Origin: a virus
Lineage: Duplodnaviria > Heunggongvirae > Uroviricota > Caudoviricetes
Direction: 5' to 3' (one strand)
Virus record (IMG/VR): IMGVR_UViG_2563366976_000005
Length of the DNA stretch: 13,080 nt
A program made the position numbers and the translations under genes. The notes under the pieces are model-generated. The model had not been told where the DNA came from. It saw only the letters and a list, made by a program, of their open reading frames with translations, and searched no databases. The number at the start of each line of letters is the position of its first letter. Positions within the stretch are counted from its first letter, which is position 1. Shown here piece by piece: positions 3,609-10,241 of this stretch.

Positions 3609-4184
3609 TCACCCATCTTGCTGCGGTGCTACTATTGAAAAGTACTCACACCCTTTAGCCCAAATAGTTTTGATAGTTGTCCAACTGACTGGAACCTTGA
3701 TTTCGATTCTTCCGCTGCCGTCACAAGTTTCGCAATCATCATCACCAAAGCATTCCGGGCAGCTTATAAACGTAGTTTCTGAAAATTCACCGGATAGCAC
3801 ACCCTTAGCGCCGTTCTCAGCGGTTAGTTTCTTCGGCACTATAACCCAACCATCCGGAGTTACCGGAGAATTGCCATTTATATCGAAGTTTGGCTCTGCG
3901 TCCTGAACCAGGAGGATGTAACCATTCTTGGCAGTATCAAGTTCTAACGCCTCGGTGACGGTACCGAAATAGCGATTACCTAAATCCGCATCACAAGTGC
4001 TTACATCAATGGAAACCTCCATGCCTTCGATTAATTCTGGCAAGTTGTAAGTTTGGCTTACAGGTTCTGCTCCCAGTGATGCCAGTGCAATTCGTGCCAG
4101 TTCCATTTGTTCGCCACGAGTAAGCCCGTTTTCAAGCGGATTTTTAATGAACAATTCAATACGTTCTTTGGTAATAGTGGTCAT
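3609..4184 (-). CDS. Hypothetical protein (191 aa) with a C-terminal DnaJ-type CxxCxGxG zinc-ribbon motif (CPECFGDDDCETCDGSGRIE)
   Basis: Clean ORF with an AAGGA Shine-Dalgarno 7 nt upstream of the ATG. It starts 10 bp after the stop of the upstream TGT-like gene, so they form an operon. GC content is lower than in the lambda core genes. Confidence 0.7.
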   Translation of the reverse strand: MTTITKERIELFIKNPLENGLTRGEQMELARIALASLGAEPVSQTYNLPELIEGMEVSIDVSTCDADLGNRYFGTVTEALELDTAKNGYILLVQDAEPNFDINGNSPVTPDGWVIVPKKLTAENGAKGVLSGEFSETTFISCPECFGDDDCETCDGSGRIEIKVPVSWTTIKTIWAKGCEYFSIVAPQQDG

Positions 4185-4194
4185 TTGTTAGTCC

Positions 4195-4950
4195 TTAAAC
4201 TGCTAGTTGCAATTGCATTTCAAAGCGGTCGCGTTGTTCACAATACGCAAGAGAACCAGGGCTATTGTGTGCCTCAATCCGTTCTACCATTAATGCTGCG
4301 CGTGTCTCTTTACTTGCAGGTGCATAAGCCCCAGACCAGGCTTTATCAATACCGATGTTTCGAGCGACGTTCGTACTATCTGCGCTGGCTAAGGGTAATT
4401 TTGTGAATATCAGCGGATTTAACATGCGCAATCCATGTAGTTTCGTAACCGGCTGACCATGCCCATCAACAATGTGACGAATCAGGTCTTTCATTCTGGC
4501 TACCGCAAGAGTTGGGCGCTTTACGTCATAGTCGCCACAACTACCGATAGCCACTCGCGGAAACTCATTGCACAAATGAATAAATCGCTCGTCACTTTCA
4601 TTCATGTGCCACACTGGAACGCCAGCTAGTTTTCCGTGAGGCCACTCATTCAGAAGCGCATCATTTTCCTCCTCTCCGCCATCAATAACATCCGGGATAA
4701 TGGCAAAATCGAATCCTGGGTGATTCTTCCAGCGAGCAACAAACTCGTAGTAATCGCTCCAGTCGATTTTGTTTTTGCCAGCTGCTTTCCAGGCGGTGAA
4801 TGCACCGTTGTCCAGCGCGAACGACTGACAGTATTCAGCCGCGAGATTGATCTGGCCTGAATGCGCAAAACTGATAAACGCATGTCGCCCTTTCCATGCT
4901 CTCATTGCGCACGTATCAGGAGTAATAGGCCCACCGTGGTAGTGAATCAT
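4195..4950 (-). CDS. tRNA-guanine transglycosylase (TGT)/DpdA-like protein, 251 aa. This is a candidate 7-deazaguanine DNA transglycosylase
   Basis: An AAGGAG Shine-Dalgarno precedes the ATG at 4950 (MIHYHGGP...). The ORF track extends a 265-aa version to 4992, overlapping the upstream gene. Four motifs occur in the same order and similar spacing as the bacterial TGT catalytic core that I recall: LDNGAF resembles TDSGG(F/Y)Q (nucleophile Asp), RVAIGSCG resembles YAVGGLAVG, KLHGLRM resembles HYLMGVG, and ADSTNVARNIG resembles FDCVLPTRSGRNG (second catalytic Asp). There is no C-terminal Zn subdomain, consistent with minimal phage DpdA-type enzymes. Confidence 0.5.
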   Translation of the reverse strand: MIHYHGGPITPDTCAMRAWKGRHAFISFAHSGQINLAAEYCQSFALDNGAFTAWKAAGKNKIDWSDYYEFVARWKNHPGFDFAIIPDVIDGGEEENDALLNEWPHGKLAGVPVWHMNESDERFIHLCNEFPRVAIGSCGDYDVKRPTLAVARMKDLIRHIVDGHGQPVTKLHGLRMLNPLIFTKLPLASADSTNVARNIGIDKAWSGAYAPASKETRAALMVERIEAHNSPGSLAYCEQRDRFEMQLQLAV

Positions 4951-4951
4951 C

Positions 4952-5359
4952 TCACTCTCCTTTGATGCGAATGCCAGTAGCGCGGATTGCATCGATGACT
5001 TCAGAAACTTTGTATGCCATTACCGTTTGGTAATCATCGTGAAAATCTGTTCGATGAAGCATGCTGCTACGTTCCGGGAGCAGTATTTCCCGCGCTTCCA
5101 GTTCTGCAATGCGCTTTTTTGCTGCTTCCAGTTCATCCAGTAATTCCAGCACGGTAGCCGGATTAGCCTTGGCAACAAAATCCCGGACTGGCTTACAATC
5201 AATCTCCGCAATGGGTTGATACGATGTGTAGCCATGCTGTCTTGTATAACTACCGTGACGAATAACGAAAAAATCACCATTTATTTTTTTAGCCTGCCAC
5301 TTATCTTCACCGGCTTTCTCTGCCGCTTCACGCAGTGCCTGAGAGTTAATTTCGCTCAC
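4952..5359 (-). CDS. Ea22-like protein (short form, 135 aa) with a GTG start
   Basis: The N-terminus MSEINSQALREAAE and C-terminus ...GIRIKGE resemble lambda Ea22 termini as I recall them. The middle is a coiled-coil (LLDELEAAKKRIAELEAREI). The start codon is GTG, overlapping the TGA of the upstream orf73. Confidence 0.6.
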   Translation of the reverse strand: MSEINSQALREAAEKAGEDKWQAKKINGDFFVIRHGSYTRQHGYTSYQPIAEIDCKPVRDFVAKANPATVLELLDELEAAKKRIAELEAREILLPERSSMLHRTDFHDDYQTVMAYKVSEVIDAIRATGIRIKGE

Positions 5360-8150: not shown

Positions 8151-8561
8151 TTAGCGATTCAGGCCGTTACCGCGTCCGTCGAGAAAAACTTCCACGAGCA
8201 AATCACGGGTATAAGTGCGCTCGATGCCGCGATGCAGATAAAGCCGTCCGCGTAAATTAGCTGATGCAGTCCAGGTACCATCTTTGTGTTTGACCAGCAT
8301 TCCTGGCATGACCGCACCTCGATTAACGGTCTGCGTTCCGTAATGTTGATGAACCATAAAAACTCCTGCCCGTAAGCTGGGCTGCTGAACATATAGAGAC
8401 TTCTGCGCGTATTCAGGCGGTGGATGGCCGCCGGTTGTCATAACTAAGTCGCCTCGTTGAAGCGACTGAGGTATGAAGTGTTGAGTTGATTTCAGCTGGT
8501 CACACCGACGTTCACGCGTCCGCTTCACCCCTCGCACTCCCCGAAGCCTGCTGAAATTCAA
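8151..8561 (-). CDS. First gene of the pL operon. It is a hypothetical protein with an N-terminal arginine-rich motif (VKRTRERR) and may be an N-like antiterminator. The start is uncertain: TTG at 8561 per the track, GTG at about 8528 with a GGGAG SD, or the first ATG at 8441
   Basis: It lies immediately downstream of the oL/pL operators in the position of lambda N. KRTRERR resembles the ARM of lambda N (TRRRERR) and P22 N (TRRHERR). There is no in-frame ATG before codon 41. The rest of the protein is unlike lambda N. Confidence 0.35.
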
Positions 8562-8635: not shown

Positions 8636-8705
8636 TTTAAAACTATAGTTGTTTTATCGTCAACAACAAAAGTTGTTTTGTCGGTTGTTTTAAATATAAC
8701 TGGTT
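8636..8705 (-). promoter_or_regulatory. oL/pL. Clustered GTTGTT/AACAAC operator half-sites overlap a leftward promoter (- strand TTGACG -N17- TTAAAT)
   Basis: The + strand reads AGTTGTTTTATCGTCAACAACAAAAGTTGTTTTGTCGGTTGTTTT. It contains GTTGTT-N8-AACAAC and AACAAC-N4-GTTGTT palindromes and shares the core GTTGTTGAC(G/T)A(T)AAAACAAC with the cI-cro intergenic operator. Confidence 0.6.
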
Positions 8706-8799: not shown

Positions 8800-8830
8800 A
8801 GGAAAAGAAAACCCGGCGCGGTTGCCGGGT
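8800..8830 (-). terminator. Rho-independent terminator directly downstream of the lipoprotein gene
   Basis: On the - strand the sequence reads CCCGGC-AACCGC-GCCGGG followed by TTTTCTTTTCC. Confidence 0.6.
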
Positions 8831-8837
8831 ATGATTA

Positions 8838-9218
8838 TCAGTCAGCCCAACCTGATTTCGAGTTTATTTGGGTTTCTGACATTGTGTATTTCTTAATCGT
8901 GTCATCGTTAAAAAGAATAGTAAGTTCTTTTTTCGTACCGTTCGTTCCATTATGGAATAATCCATAGAATGGAATAAAAGTGGTGCCATTAACTTTTACT
9001 TTTGCAAAGGCGTACTTCCAGATCTCGTTTCCACTGTCAGTATATGAAACAGCATCAGGAGAACCAAAGTAAGATTTAACCTCATTCTTGGTTGTTTTAC
9101 CTTCCTGAAGTTTAGACTGGACACTAATTTCAGTTTCATTTTTGAGTTGCTGGTTGCCTGAAGAAGCACACCCAGCCAATACAGATGCCATCATGGCAGC
9201 GATTAGGATTTTTCTCAT
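8838..9218 (-). CDS. Outer-membrane lipoprotein, 126 aa, with a BamE/SmpA-OmlA-like fold. It is a moron in the rex position and a candidate superinfection-exclusion protein
   Basis: Signal peptide plus lipobox (MRKILIAAMMASVLAGCASS). The pattern TTKNEVKSYFGSPD...EIWKYAF...ELTILFNDDTIKKY resembles the BamE pattern MTKQQV..LGTP...WFYVF...LTLTF. The gene is AT-rich, lies between cI and oL, and has its own terminator. Confidence 0.8.
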   Translation of the reverse strand: MRKILIAAMMASVLAGCASSGNQQLKNETEISVQSKLQEGKTTKNEVKSYFGSPDAVSYTDSGNEIWKYAFAKVKVNGTTFIPFYGLFHNGTNGTKKELTILFNDDTIKKYTMSETQINSKSGWAD

Positions 9219-9447
9219 TTTATGTTTCCATTCATTATAATCAGAAACATCTTAACATAATGATTCGAAATAAAAACCGCTACGAGATAGGGGGACATTT
9301 TGCTGACAGTAGCAACAAATCTCAGCTAACAACGAGAATATTTACTGAAATATGCAAACAGATTTGGCGTTCTTATAGAGAATTTAGTGCAATATCTAAT
9401 CCGAGTGGTATAAACCTTAACCTTCGCTCCCTTAAGTCGTAGATAAA

Positions 9448-10137
9448 TTAACCATGCTTCCTGTACGTCTGCGGCATGCTTCCAATGACCTTACCGAATA
9501 TGAACACCCGGTTCATCTCGTCTTTCTCGATCGGGTCCCACGGCGAGTAGCTCTTGTTATCAGAGATAACCAGCAGCTTATCCTTCATCATTTGAAGACG
9601 TTTTACATGGGCAGTGTCGTCGTACAGAAACGCATAGATGCCATCACCGTCGAAAGATTTAACAGTGATATCAACGAACAGCAGGTCACCTGGTTCGATC
9701 GTCCCTGACATGCTGTCACCTCGCACGTTAATGATGCGGATATTTTCCGCCTTCCTGCCATCGAACATGTGACGAGCATCGTCAAACGAGTACTCAACCG
9801 AGCGTAGAACTTCTACAAACTCACGGTTGATTACACCTGGCCCGGCACTGACTTCTATATCAAGAACGTCAATTTTGAAGTATTTGGAATGGCTGACAGT
9901 TGATTGTATTGGTTGCACTGTACTGTCTGACATATTTCCAACGCCAGAAGATAACCATTCTGCGCGCACACCCAAAGCGTTCGCGATCTCCACGATTTTA
10001 GTTGTTTGGTTAGCTTTCCCTGTTTCGATTTTCTGAATAGCAGCCTGGCTAACCCCGACCAAATCCCCAAGCGCCTTTTGTGTAAGGCCTCGCGCTAATC
10101 TGGCTTCTTTAAGTCTTTCTGAGAGTGTTGTTTTCAT
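9448..10137 (-). CDS. cI: CI-type prophage repressor (N-terminal XRE HTH plus C-terminal S24 LexA-like autopeptidase), 229 aa
   Basis: HTH segment LTQKALGDLVGVSQAAIQKIETGK. The C-terminus carries S24 motifs (VRGDSMSGTIEPGDLLFVD ... VKRL). It is divergent from the cro-like gene across an operator-rich 104-bp intergenic region. Confidence 0.9.
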   Translation of the reverse strand: MKTTLSERLKEARLARGLTQKALGDLVGVSQAAIQKIETGKANQTTKIVEIANALGVRAEWLSSGVGNMSDSTVQPIQSTVSHSKYFKIDVLDIEVSAGPGVINREFVEVLRSVEYSFDDARHMFDGRKAENIRIINVRGDSMSGTIEPGDLLFVDITVKSFDGDGIYAFLYDDTAHVKRLQMMKDKLLVISDNKSYSPWDPIEKDEMNRVFIFGKVIGSMPQTYRKHG

Positions 10138-10241
10138 AGATCAAATGTACAACCAAGGTTTTATTTCATCAAACGAAAATGGTTGTTGACTAAAAACAAC
10201 CATAGTTTTAATCTTGATTCGGATTAACCACGGAGGTTGTT
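10138..10241. promoter_or_regulatory. oR/pR/pRM region. A 25-bp palindromic operator ATGGTTGTTGACTAAAAACAACCAT (10179-10203) contains the pR -35 TTGACT. An extra GGTTGT half-site lies next to the cI start (10149-10158)
   Basis: A perfect inverted repeat, ATGGTTGTT/AACAACCAT, overlaps TTGACT-N17-TAATCT. A GGAGG Shine-Dalgarno lies 5 nt before the cro ATG. The operator matches the oL repeats. Confidence 0.65.

What the first reader, a model, noticed from the sequence alone, without database searches (positions are those of the whole stretch)
8800..9447. BamE/SmpA-OmlA-like lipoprotein moron in the rex slot between cI and oL: a candidate superinfection-exclusion gene
The only gene between the repressor and the left operator is an AT-rich 126-aa lipoprotein (LAGC lipobox) whose mature domain resembles the small BamE/OmlA fold. 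It is co-oriented with cI, with no convincing terminator between the cI stop and its start, and it is followed by a clean intrinsic terminator before oL. This is the architecture of rexAB in lambda: lysogenically expressed and insulated from pL. Lysogen-expressed small outer-membrane lipoproteins such as T5 Llp and phi80/N15 Cor block phage receptors. A BamE mimic could also perturb BAM-dependent insertion of a receptor outer-membrane protein.
Basis: partly seen in the sequence, partly recalled or inferred. Interest (0 to 1): 0.65.

Follow-up and report, generated by a model that had tools for sequence, protein, structure and literature searches.

The report
BamE-fold lipoprotein moron beside cI
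A lambda-like prophage carries an inserted gene for a small outer-membrane lipoprotein shaped like the assembly factor BamE, placed where prophages usually keep genes that block other phages, but nobody has tested what it does.

The parts
8811..8830 (-). Intrinsic terminator ending the cI/lipoprotein transcription unit (ACCCGGCAACCGCGCCGGGT followed by TTTCTTTT). The same terminator, with compensatory changes, follows cI in the cassette-less phages Turner and PhiR34_1.
8838..9218 (-). Lipoprotein gene, 126 codons plus stop. SEN1984 family / PHROG 3135.
9168..9218 (-). Signal peptide with lipobox LAGC (lipobox codons 9179-9168). Cys17 would become the lipidated N-terminus. Ala at +2 predicts sorting to the outer membrane.
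   Evidence: read directly from the sequence; the +2 rule is established knowledge; Pfam LPAM_1 gives only a weak hit
8889..9116 (-). BamE/SmpA_OmlA-like domain (aa 35-110).
8955..8990 (-). Family-specific 12-residue insertion in the beta-hairpin (aa 77-88, NGTTFIPFYGLF). It holds the most conserved family motif, FIP..G.
   Evidence: hhalign gap against E. coli BamE; G78, F81, I82, P83, Y85, G86 and F88 are invariant in 49 sequences; P83 is invariant in 75 distant members
9219..9263 (-). Conserved leader directly upstream of the ATG. The same leader precedes a different lipoprotein gene in other phages.
9249..9257 (-). Candidate extended -10 promoter, TGtTAAGAT, 30 nt before the ATG.
   Evidence: TGnTA(A/G)(G/A)AT lies 30-35 nt before the ATG in 30 of 57 distinct leaders, against about 0.011 per shuffled leader. 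This is an inference, not a mapped transcription start.
9219..9447 (-). AT-rich 229-nt spacer between the cI stop and the lipoprotein start. It has no canonical terminator. Only a T-run (about 9266-9280) survives of the terminator seen at this position in relatives.
8830..9448 (.). The inserted cassette: 619 bp that replace 122 bp in phage Turner.
   Evidence: present in 69 of 5426 complete E. coli genomes, against 758 with the empty junction
9448..10137 (-). cI-type repressor (HTH_3 plus Peptidase_S24).
8637..8692 (-). oL/pL region. Operator palindrome at 8648-8667. Read by eye, pL is TTGACG, a 17-nt spacer, then TTAAAT on the - strand.
10171..10211 (+). oR/pR region (operator palindrome at 10182-10200), the inverted counterpart of oL/pL.

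Best explanation
The gene is cargo (a moron) of a lambdoid prophage.

What is shown:
- A 619-bp AT-rich cassette was inserted between the cI stop codon and the immunity-region terminator.
- It encodes a small lipoprotein with a BamE/BLIP-type alpha-alpha-beta-beta-beta domain plus a family-specific, highly conserved aromatic hairpin.

What is inferred from comparative anatomy: it is made in the lysogen. Expression comes by read-through from the cI promoters, since this copy has no terminator in between, and/or from its own extended -10 promoter. Transcription stops at the terminator before oL, so the gene is insulated from pL.

What is proposed and not shown: the protein acts at the envelope as a superinfection-exclusion factor. 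It would bind the periplasmic face of an outer-membrane component, or the periplasmic path of an incoming tail, so that adsorption or DNA entry of competing phages fails. This would resemble T5 Llp, Cor or HK97 gp15.

Sub-confidences: real gene 0.97; BamE-type fold 0.9; moron 0.9; expressed in the lysogen 0.7; exclusion function 0.35-0.4.
For: Gene and fold:
- (dN/dS below 0.1).
- PF04355, 21.8 bits; 65 of 75 distant family members hit PF04355 at E <= 0.01.

Moron:
- Turner and PhiR34_1 have the same cI, operators and terminator but lack the cassette.
- One search shows the low G+C.
- 69 E. coli genomes carry the cassette and 758 have the empty junction.
- only 21 of 185,579 species-representative genomes hold a relative, and at least 16 of those 21 lie in prophage modules.

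Lysogenic expression:
- 10 of 10 Citrobacter/Enterobacter prophages and 54 of 80 viral contigs place it in the immunity region. In 48 of these it lies downstream of and co-oriented with cI, behind at least six cI types.
- in 16 loci the gap after cI is in the 40-49 nt class. In L052, the one examined in detail, it is 47 nt with no terminator, giving a bicistronic cI-lipoprotein unit that ends in a terminator.
- (PMC7067206): the analogous cI-bstA pair is transcribed from the cI promoter.
- conserved candidate extended -10 promoter.

Exclusion (circumstantial only):
- Both recurrent positions are known sites of exclusion or defence morons. One is the cI-to-pL slot (rexAB; bstA). The other is the chaperone-to-tape-measure slot of HK97 gp15 (PMC3594210). 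It holds 22 of 80 viral contigs and 10 of 21 genomes.
- In S107 the gene directly follows bstA.
Against: - The family also occurs in the non-phage island ROD21 (SEN1984). It also occurs next to an integrase in a Pseudomonas phage. It need not be anti-phage.
- The promoter is a sequence inference. In this copy the best -35 match is only 3 of 6.
- Rho-dependent termination in the 229-nt untranslated spacer cannot be excluded.
- The hairpin that carries the conserved motif is modelled at only pLDDT 62-71.
Confidence: 0.4

Rival explanations
1. It is a lysogenic-conversion or fitness factor for the host rather than an anti-phage device. The envelope lipoprotein would change outer-membrane properties such as serum, bile or antimicrobial-peptide tolerance, stress signalling or colonisation, as lambda Bor and Lom do.
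For: - The name-giving homologue SEN1984 lies in the excisable pathogenicity island ROD21 of S. Enteritidis.
- Phage PhiR26_1, which carries the identical cassette, is rich in envelope morons: Bor, Lom, an OmpD-like porin and an omptin.
- The family has 1332 representatives of 50%-identity clusters. Relatives at about 30% identity occur in Alteromonas and Pseudomonas phages. This argues for a generic envelope target rather than one variable phage receptor.
Against: - Characterised cargo of the cI-to-pL slot and of the pre-tape-measure slot, as far as I could find or recall, is anti-phage: rexAB, nun, stk (from my own knowledge), bstA and HK97 gp15.
- No virulence phenotype has been reported for SEN1984 itself.
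Confidence: 0.28
2. It works on the BAM machine itself. A BamE surrogate or competitor would dock on BamA/BamD and change outer-membrane protein assembly or BamA conformation. This would lower receptor levels or mask BamA. From my own knowledge, BamA is a receptor for short-tailed Stx phages and for some CDI toxins.
For: - The predicted location, the inner leaflet of the outer membrane, is the same as BamE's.
- PGAP names the protein BamE in most genomes.
Against: - Identity is only 22-31% over the core.
- The BamE N-terminal segment, including DINQGNY, does not align. There is a 12-residue insertion.
- The Pfam score is below the family cut-off.
- The same fold serves unrelated binding roles: BLIP, OsmE, BtiO, TpgA.
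- NCBI now separates the family from BamE.
- No co-occurrence or contact evidence was obtainable.
Confidence: 0.1
3. It is a periplasmic inhibitor or immunity protein tethered to the outer membrane. It would neutralise an incoming enzyme or toxin: a T6SS effector, a colicin, a lysozyme or transglycosylase, or a phage tail-tip peptidoglycan hydrolase.
For: - The BFVD search gave weak hits to a phage 'BLIP' and to an 'immunity protein'.
Against: - No effector or toxin gene is linked to it in any locus examined.
- The fold matches are generic and share little sequence identity.
Confidence: 0.12
4. It is a decaying or silent passenger with no function in this prophage.
For: - In this copy the upstream terminator stem and the -35 element seen in relatives are missing.
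- One E. coli strain carries an IS1 between cI and the gene.
Against: - The ORF is intact and at least 99% identical in all 69 E. coli genomes that carry it.
- dN/dS is below 0.1 across genera.
- The lipobox and family motifs are intact.
Confidence: 0.03

Closest known systems
Lambda rexAB (cargo of the immunity operon), together with HK022 nun, 933W stk and BTP1 bstA
   Same: The gene lies between cI and oL/pL, is co-oriented with cI, and is followed by the immunity terminator. Relatives form tight cI-cargo operons. For bstA, transcription from the cI promoter has been shown. In phage S107 bstA and this lipoprotein share the slot.
   Different: There is no sequence or fold relation to any of them. 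The product is a secreted lipoprotein, not a cytoplasmic or inner-membrane protein. It also carries a candidate promoter of its own. The roles of rex, nun and stk are quoted from my own knowledge.
HK97 gp15 moron (superinfection exclusion, between the tail chaperone and tape-measure genes)
   Same: Of the close relatives, 22 of 80 on viral contigs and 10 of 21 in genomes occupy this slot as terminator-promoter-gene-terminator units. PMC3594210 describes the gp15 position and its expression from the prophage.
   Different: gp15 is a small inner-membrane YebO-like protein. This one is a predicted outer-membrane lipoprotein with a BamE fold. The copy in the window is in the immunity region, not the tail operon.
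T5 Llp and phi80/N15/HK022 Cor (receptor-blocking outer-membrane lipoproteins)
   Same: Small phage-encoded lipoproteins predicted to sit in the inner leaflet of the outer membrane. Llp binds FhuA from the periplasmic side, according to the abstract of 10.64898/2026.03.26.714494 shown.
E. coli BamE (SmpA/OmlA), subunit of the BAM complex
   Different: It is prophage cargo found in about 1% of E. coli genomes, not the core chromosomal gene. It has a 12-residue hairpin insertion and an unaligned N-terminal segment. NCBI now names it 'SEN1984 family lipoprotein'.
SEN1984 of the ROD21 island (S. Enteritidis) / PHROG 3135
   Same: Same family. The PHROG 3135 match has E 2.9e-48 over the full length. 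PGAP names identical E. coli genes 'SEN1984 family lipoprotein'. SEN1984 was likewise predicted by Phyre2 to be BamE-like.
   Different: SEN1984 sits in an excisable island, not next to a phage repressor. Its function is equally unknown.
Lambda Bor (prophage-expressed outer-membrane lipoprotein, serum resistance)
   Same: A moron-encoded outer-membrane lipoprotein expressed from the prophage. Bor co-occurs with this cassette in PhiR26_1.
   Different: Different family, different genome position (late region), and a host-directed rather than phage-directed role.

Membership tests
BamE (BAM complex subunit; Pfam PF04355) | alpha-alpha-beta-beta-beta BamE/SmpA_OmlA fold | tested here: met
BamE (BAM complex subunit; Pfam PF04355) | Score at or above the Pfam gathering threshold | tested here: not met
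   21.8 bits against a cut-off of 23.2. However, 65 of 75 distant family members match at E <= 0.01, the best at 4e-9.
BamE (BAM complex subunit; Pfam PF04355) | Core chromosomal orthologue, one per genome | tested here: not met
   It lies in a prophage cassette found in 69 of 5426 complete E. coli genomes and in 21 of 185,579 species-representative genomes.
BamE (BAM complex subunit; Pfam PF04355) | Conserved N-terminal BamE segment and BamE-length beta-hairpin | tested here: not met
   hhalign aligns only residues 34-108 to BamE residues 43-100 and leaves a 12-residue insertion. The Pfam match starts at profile position 10.
BamE (BAM complex subunit; Pfam PF04355) | Physical association with BamA/BamD | not testable with these tools
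   Needs pull-down, crosslinking or a multimer prediction.
SEN1984 family lipoprotein / PHROG 3135 | Full-length profile match | tested here: met
   PHROG 3135 E 2.9e-48, residues 1-124 against profile positions 1-114 of 114. PGAP uses this name for 100% identical genes. No NCBIfam release 20 HMM of that name was hit.
SEN1984 family lipoprotein / PHROG 3135 | Family motifs: C-A-S-x-G-N after the lipobox, G-x-T-T-K, G-x-P, E-x-W-x-Y, F-I-P hairpin, C-terminal K-[ST]-G | tested here: met
   Invariant and near-invariant columns in alignments of 49 and 75 members. Sequences are listed.
Moron (sense of Juhala et al. 2000, as summarised in PMC3594210) | Extra DNA relative to otherwise collinear relatives | tested here: met
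   619 bp replace 122 bp of Turner/PhiR34_1. The flanks are about 96% identical.
Moron (sense of Juhala et al. 2000, as summarised in PMC3594210) | Base composition that departs from the neighbours | tested here: met
   32-41.5% G+C across the cassette against about 47-50% in the flanks.
Moron (sense of Juhala et al. 2000, as summarised in PMC3594210) | Own terminator | tested here: met
   Terminator at 8811-8830. Downstream terminators were detected in 55 of the 80 viral-contig loci. In this window the terminator is the one the recipient phage already had.
Moron (sense of Juhala et al. 2000, as summarised in PMC3594210) | Own promoter | tested here: inconclusive
   A conserved TGnTA(A/G)GAT lies 30-35 nt before the ATG in 30 of 57 distinct leaders. 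The consensus scan did not call it. No transcription start data exist.
Moron (sense of Juhala et al. 2000, as summarised in PMC3594210) | Expression from the repressed prophage | not testable with these tools
   Inferred only, from the cI-linked operon structure and the bstA precedent.
rexAB-type cargo of the immunity operon | Between cI and oL/pL, same strand as cI, terminator before oL | tested here: met
rexAB-type cargo of the immunity operon | No terminator between cI and the cargo | tested here: met
   No canonical terminator is found in 9219-9447. My looser scan finds only a weak AT-rich hairpin. Rho-dependent termination is not testable.
Receptor-blocking exclusion lipoproteins (Cor, Llp) | Homology to Cor or Llp | tested here: not met
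Receptor-blocking exclusion lipoproteins (Cor, Llp) | Blocks infection by phages that use a given receptor | not testable with these tools
   Needs plating, adsorption and injection assays.
Known anti-phage defence systems (PADLOC-DB 2.0) | Match to any defence-protein model | tested here: not met
   0 families at E <= 1.

The most novel reading that the evidence does not exclude
The SEN1984/PHROG 3135 lipoproteins are a new, widespread class of prophage superinfection-exclusion proteins built on the BamE fold. [quoted passage not shown] That would lock its surface loops and shut out phages, and perhaps CDI toxins or colicins, that depend on it. They hop between the two classical exclusion-moron slots (cI-to-pL and chaperone-to-tape-measure) by recombination at look-alike terminators.
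Probability: 0.12. Interest if true: 0.75.

Novelty: new member of a known kind. Interest (0 to 1): 0.42.

Why it matters
If the exclusion reading is right, this would be a third structural solution, after Cor and Llp, for blocking phage entry from the periplasmic side of the outer membrane.

The family is common. It has 1332 representatives of 50%-identity clusters, and it sits in about 1% of complete E. coli genomes and in many Citrobacter, Enterobacter, Serratia and Salmonella prophages.

It would also matter for phage-therapy host-range prediction.

It corrects an annotation. Most RefSeq E. coli genomes call this prophage gene 'outer membrane protein assembly factor BamE', and one calls it BamD. 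That could mislead analyses of BAM gene content.

The comparative anatomy also gives a clean natural experiment. PhiR26_1 carries the cassette. PhiR34_1 and Turner have the same immunity region without it.

Tried and rejected
Searches that led nowhere:
- The second and third homologue searches were meant to deepen the alignment. One search listed only the closest 120 again. One search added 13 sequences of the Klebsiella/Tatumella clade, which I used.
- The 75-sequence alignment was too diverse for the search for related loci. The AFDB50 fold library was unavailable.
- A profile search of PDB sequences gave only marginal BamE hits, E about 0.04. The fold comparison was needed.
- The BFVD fold search gave only weak hits to uncharacterised Pseudomonas phage SmpA/OmlA lipoproteins.
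- Literature searches found nothing on function for BamE-like phage proteins, SEN1984, prophage lipoproteins downstream of repressors, or exclusion lipoproteins.
- The BamE structure paper (PMC3049429) is not held. I therefore make no claim about specific BamD- or BamA-contact residues.

Readings of the conserved leader that I considered and dropped:
- A conserved RNA hairpin masking the Shine-Dalgarno sequence. The stem is present in some leaders (ATGTTTCC/GGAAACAT) but not conserved in others.
- By eye, sigma-E, sigma-28 and RcsB-box readings. The spacings do not fit a working promoter or activator site.
- The perfect TATAAT at 9234-9239. It lies too close to the ATG to leave a ribosome-binding site, and it is specific to this copy.

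Other ideas dropped:
- The conserved hairpin as an OMP beta-signal mimic. The motif does not fit the beta-signal pattern as I recall it.
- The 85-aa + strand ORF at 9185-9442. It was ignored as an antisense artefact of the AT-rich spacer.

Full report
**Setting**

The window is the left arm and immunity region of a lambdoid prophage.
- A pectinesterase-family host gene lies at 1-1284. I take it to be ybhC next to att-lambda, from my own knowledge.
- It is followed by lambda-type int and xis, Ea22-like and TraR-like genes, YqaJ exonuclease, bet, gam and a KilR-like gene.
- The immunity region has an S24/HTH cI (9448-10137, - strand), a YdaS-type cro and a YdaT-type 'cII', then O and P.
- Operator-like palindromes GTTGTT-N-AACAAC occur only at 8648-8667 and 10182-10200, against 0.01 expected by chance. 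Region 8637-8692 is an inverted copy of 10171-10211, as expected for divergent pL and pR.

**Checking the observation**

Between cI and oL there is one credible gene, 8838-9218 on the - strand. It encodes 126 aa, MRKILIAAMMASVLAG-C-ASSGN....
- The lipobox LAGC is intact. Ala at +2 means no inner-membrane retention signal, so by the established +2 rule the mature protein should be sorted to the outer membrane.
- The gene is 38% G+C and 200-nt windows across the cassette are 32-41.5%, against 47-50% in the flanks.
- A 7-bp, 6-GC hairpin with a T-run follows at 8811-8830.
- No canonical terminator is found in the 229-nt spacer after cI.
- The ORF is under strong purifying selection: dN is 0.10-0.20 with saturated dS, so dN/dS is below 0.1.

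**Fold**

- Pfam BamE (PF04355) matches residues 35-110 at E 1.6e-4 and 21.8 bits, just under the 23.2-bit cut-off.
- An AlphaFold2 model built on 49 homologues has mean pLDDT 78.9, with two helices followed by a beta-sheet.
- The ten best Foldseek PDB matches are all BamE chains.
- Of 75 distant family members, 65 hit PF04355 at E <= 0.01.

The fold assignment stands.

Membership in BamE proper does not.
- The gene is prophage cargo. It is present in 69 of 5426 complete E. coli genomes.
- The profile alignment to BamE covers only the core and leaves out BamE's N-terminal segment.
- The alignment shows a 12-residue insertion (aa 77-88, NGTTFIPFYGLF).
- That insertion is the most conserved part of the family. 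G78, F81, I82, P83, Y85, G86 and F88 are invariant in 49 sequences, and P83 is invariant in 75 distant ones.
- The family is PHROG 3135 (E 2.9e-48, function unknown).
- The newest PGAP annotations call it 'SEN1984 family lipoprotein', while older ones say 'BamE', 'hypothetical' or in one case 'BamD'.
- SEN1984 is a gene of the ROD21 island of S. Enteritidis. Phyre2 predicted it to be BamE-like, and it has no known function (PMC10655114).
- The family is large: 1332 representatives of 50%-identity clusters at E <= 1e-3.

**It is a moron**

- Phage PhiR26_1 carries the region at 99.9% identity.
- Phages Turner and PhiR34_1 have the same cI, cro, operators and terminator at about 96% identity. 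They lack window 8830-9448, where Turner has 122 unrelated bases.
- The cassette was therefore inserted between the cI stop codon and the immunity terminator, which now ends the lipoprotein gene.
- In complete E. coli genomes the empty junction occurs in 758 genomes and the filled one in 69. The two filled loci I inspected carry the same cI protein.
- Only 21 of 185,579 species-representative genomes hold a relative.

**Where the family sits elsewhere**

- In 10 of 10 Citrobacter and Enterobacter prophage loci, the 77%-identical homologue is co-oriented with and downstream of an S24 repressor. It is either adjacent to it or follows one or two other cargo genes.
- I examined 80 IMG/VR contigs with relatives of at least 79% identity:
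  - 54 place the gene in the immunity region;
  - 48 of these have a recognisable co-oriented cI upstream, of at least six cI types;
  - 22 place it in the tail module, between a DUF6246 gene and the tape-measure gene;
  - 4 are unassigned.
- The same two contexts recur in genomes, 6 and 10 of 21. The more divergent members (42-69% identity) are mostly in the tail module. Serratia and Tatumella prophages show this too.
- The tail position is the slot of the founding moron, HK97 gene 15, a prophage-expressed exclusion protein (PMC3594210).
- The immunity position is the rexAB slot.
- In Salmonella phage S107 the order is cI, bstA (PADLOC E 9e-100, annotated as two ORFs), lipoprotein, N. The cI-bstA pair of BTP1 is known to be transcribed from the cI promoter across an 88-bp gap (PMC7067206).

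**How it is expressed (inferred)**

Three arrangements exist.
- Fused to cI: 16 loci have a gap after cI in the 40-49 nt class. In L052, the one examined in detail, the gap is 47 nt with no terminator and a terminator follows the pair. The distinct leaders of this class that I listed show no promoter motif.
- Autonomous unit: terminator, conserved leader, gene, terminator. This is seen in S107, the Citrobacter and Enterobacter loci and the tail-module copies.
- The window type: the leader is kept, but the upstream terminator has lost its stem, leaving only the T-run near 9266-9280.

The leader holds TGnTA(A/G)GAT 30-35 nt before the ATG in 30 of 57 distinct leaders, in both contexts. The chance rate is about 0.011 per shuffled leader, although the leaders are related. 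This reads as an extended -10 promoter. In the window it is TG at 9257-9256 and TAAGAT at 9254-9249.

The same leader precedes a different lipoprotein gene (PHROG 7441) in the tail modules of S107 and Cronobacter phage ENT47670.

The terminators on both sides of the unit resemble each other (CCCGGC..GCCGGG-T-run). This suggests the unit moves by recombination at terminators, which is my inference.

In the window the gene can be reached both from pRM/pRE and from its own promoter, and it is insulated from pL by the terminator at 8811-8830.

**What it does**

Nothing has been tested.
- There is no PADLOC match.
- Similarity to Cor is limited to the signal peptide.
- No paper on function was found.

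The case for superinfection exclusion rests on four points:
- the recurrent use of two slots known for exclusion or defence cargo;
- the adjacency to bstA;
- the predicted location under the outer membrane;
- a fold widely used for protein-protein inhibition.

I rate this reading at 0.35-0.4.

A host-directed envelope or fitness role, like Bor, is nearly as likely (0.28). It is supported by the ROD21 homologue and by the breadth of the family.

A direct action on BAM (0.1) has only the fold in its favour. An inhibitor or immunity role against periplasmic toxins or hydrolases (0.12) has only fold neighbours in its favour.

**Verdict**

- The exclusion function remains a reasonable, directly testable hypothesis.
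- The BAM-perturbation idea is speculative.
- The gene family is already catalogued, but without a function.
- I file it as a new (uncharacterised) member of a known kind, the prophage moron lipoproteins. Interest is moderate.

Noticed in passing
window 9219-9263 (- strand); L017:2001-2045; L018:2001-2039: The roughly 45-nt leader upstream of the lipoprotein gene, with its TGnTA(A/G)GAT box, also precedes an unrelated 118-aa lipoprotein gene (PHROG 7441). That gene sits in the tail modules of Salmonella phage S107 and Cronobacter phage ENT47670. Different lipoprotein morons therefore share one expression module.
   Followed up: partly
window 8811-8830; L003-L013 upstream and downstream of the gene: Look-alike intrinsic terminators (CCCGGC..GCCGGG plus a T-run) flank the moron on both sides in many loci. 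The cassette-less phage Turner has the same terminator after cI. This suggests the unit is shuffled by recombination at terminators. In the window only the T-run of the upstream copy remains (about 9266-9280).
   Followed up: partly
L003:2989-3911 (Salmonella phage S107): The defence gene bstA (PADLOC E 9e-100) lies between cI and the lipoprotein homologue. It is annotated as two ORFs (255 and 62 aa), so it may be frameshifted.
   Followed up: partly
L025:5381-5668 and L018:2523-2816: In tail-module copies the lipoprotein gene is followed, with stop and start overlapping, by a gene for a small secreted Cys-rich protein of 95-97 aa with a signal peptide. This makes a two-gene moron that ends in a terminator just before the tape-measure gene. 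The protein has no family match in PHROGs, Pfam or PADLOC.
   Followed up: partly
L005:6413-6619 (- strand) and equivalents in most immunity-region loci: A conserved 68-74-aa ORF (PHROG 3975, function unknown) lies on the opposite strand, 34-60 bp after the lipoprotein gene, in many immunity-region loci. It is absent from the window.
   Followed up: no
window 8151-8561 (- strand): The 136-aa ORF is probably over-extended. Only its C-terminal 65 residues match the KilR-type FtsZ inhibitor (NCBIfam PRK11354, E 1.3e-16), and RefSeq annotates a 207-bp gene there in other strains. No N-like antiterminator ORF is evident between pL and kil. The early-left operon therefore looks Rac-like, while the recombination genes are lambda-like.
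   Followed up: partly
E. coli RefSeq genomes (hits H43-H107): PGAP names the identical gene in four ways: 'outer membrane protein assembly factor BamE', 'BamD' (strain PM4), 'hypothetical protein' and 'SEN1984 family lipoprotein'. The BamE and BamD labels are over-annotations of a prophage gene.
   Followed up: yes
L021:3555-4251 (E. coli ET201): An IS1 element is inserted in the spacer between cI and the lipoprotein gene. This naturally uncouples the gene from the cI transcript and could serve as a test case for the gene's own promoter.
   Followed up: no
window 9234-9239: A perfect, palindromic TATAAT (ATTATAAT) lies 15 nt before the ATG. It arose from GATTGCAAT in relatives and is specific to the window-type leader. 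It is also the second hexamer of the + strand promoter-like hit at 9212-9241. It is too close to the ATG to leave a ribosome-binding site, so it is probably not the working promoter.
   Followed up: partly
L019 (phage PhiR26_1, whole genome): The phage that carries the identical cassette is loaded with envelope and defence morons: PD-lambda-1, an OmpD-like porin, Bor, Lom and an omptin. Its integrase differs from the lambda-type int of the window, so the immunity module has been reassorted.
   Followed up: no
window 3609-4184 and 4195-4992 (- strand): Two sizeable ORFs of the b-region side (191 and 265 aa) have no Pfam match at E <= 1e-5.
   Followed up: no
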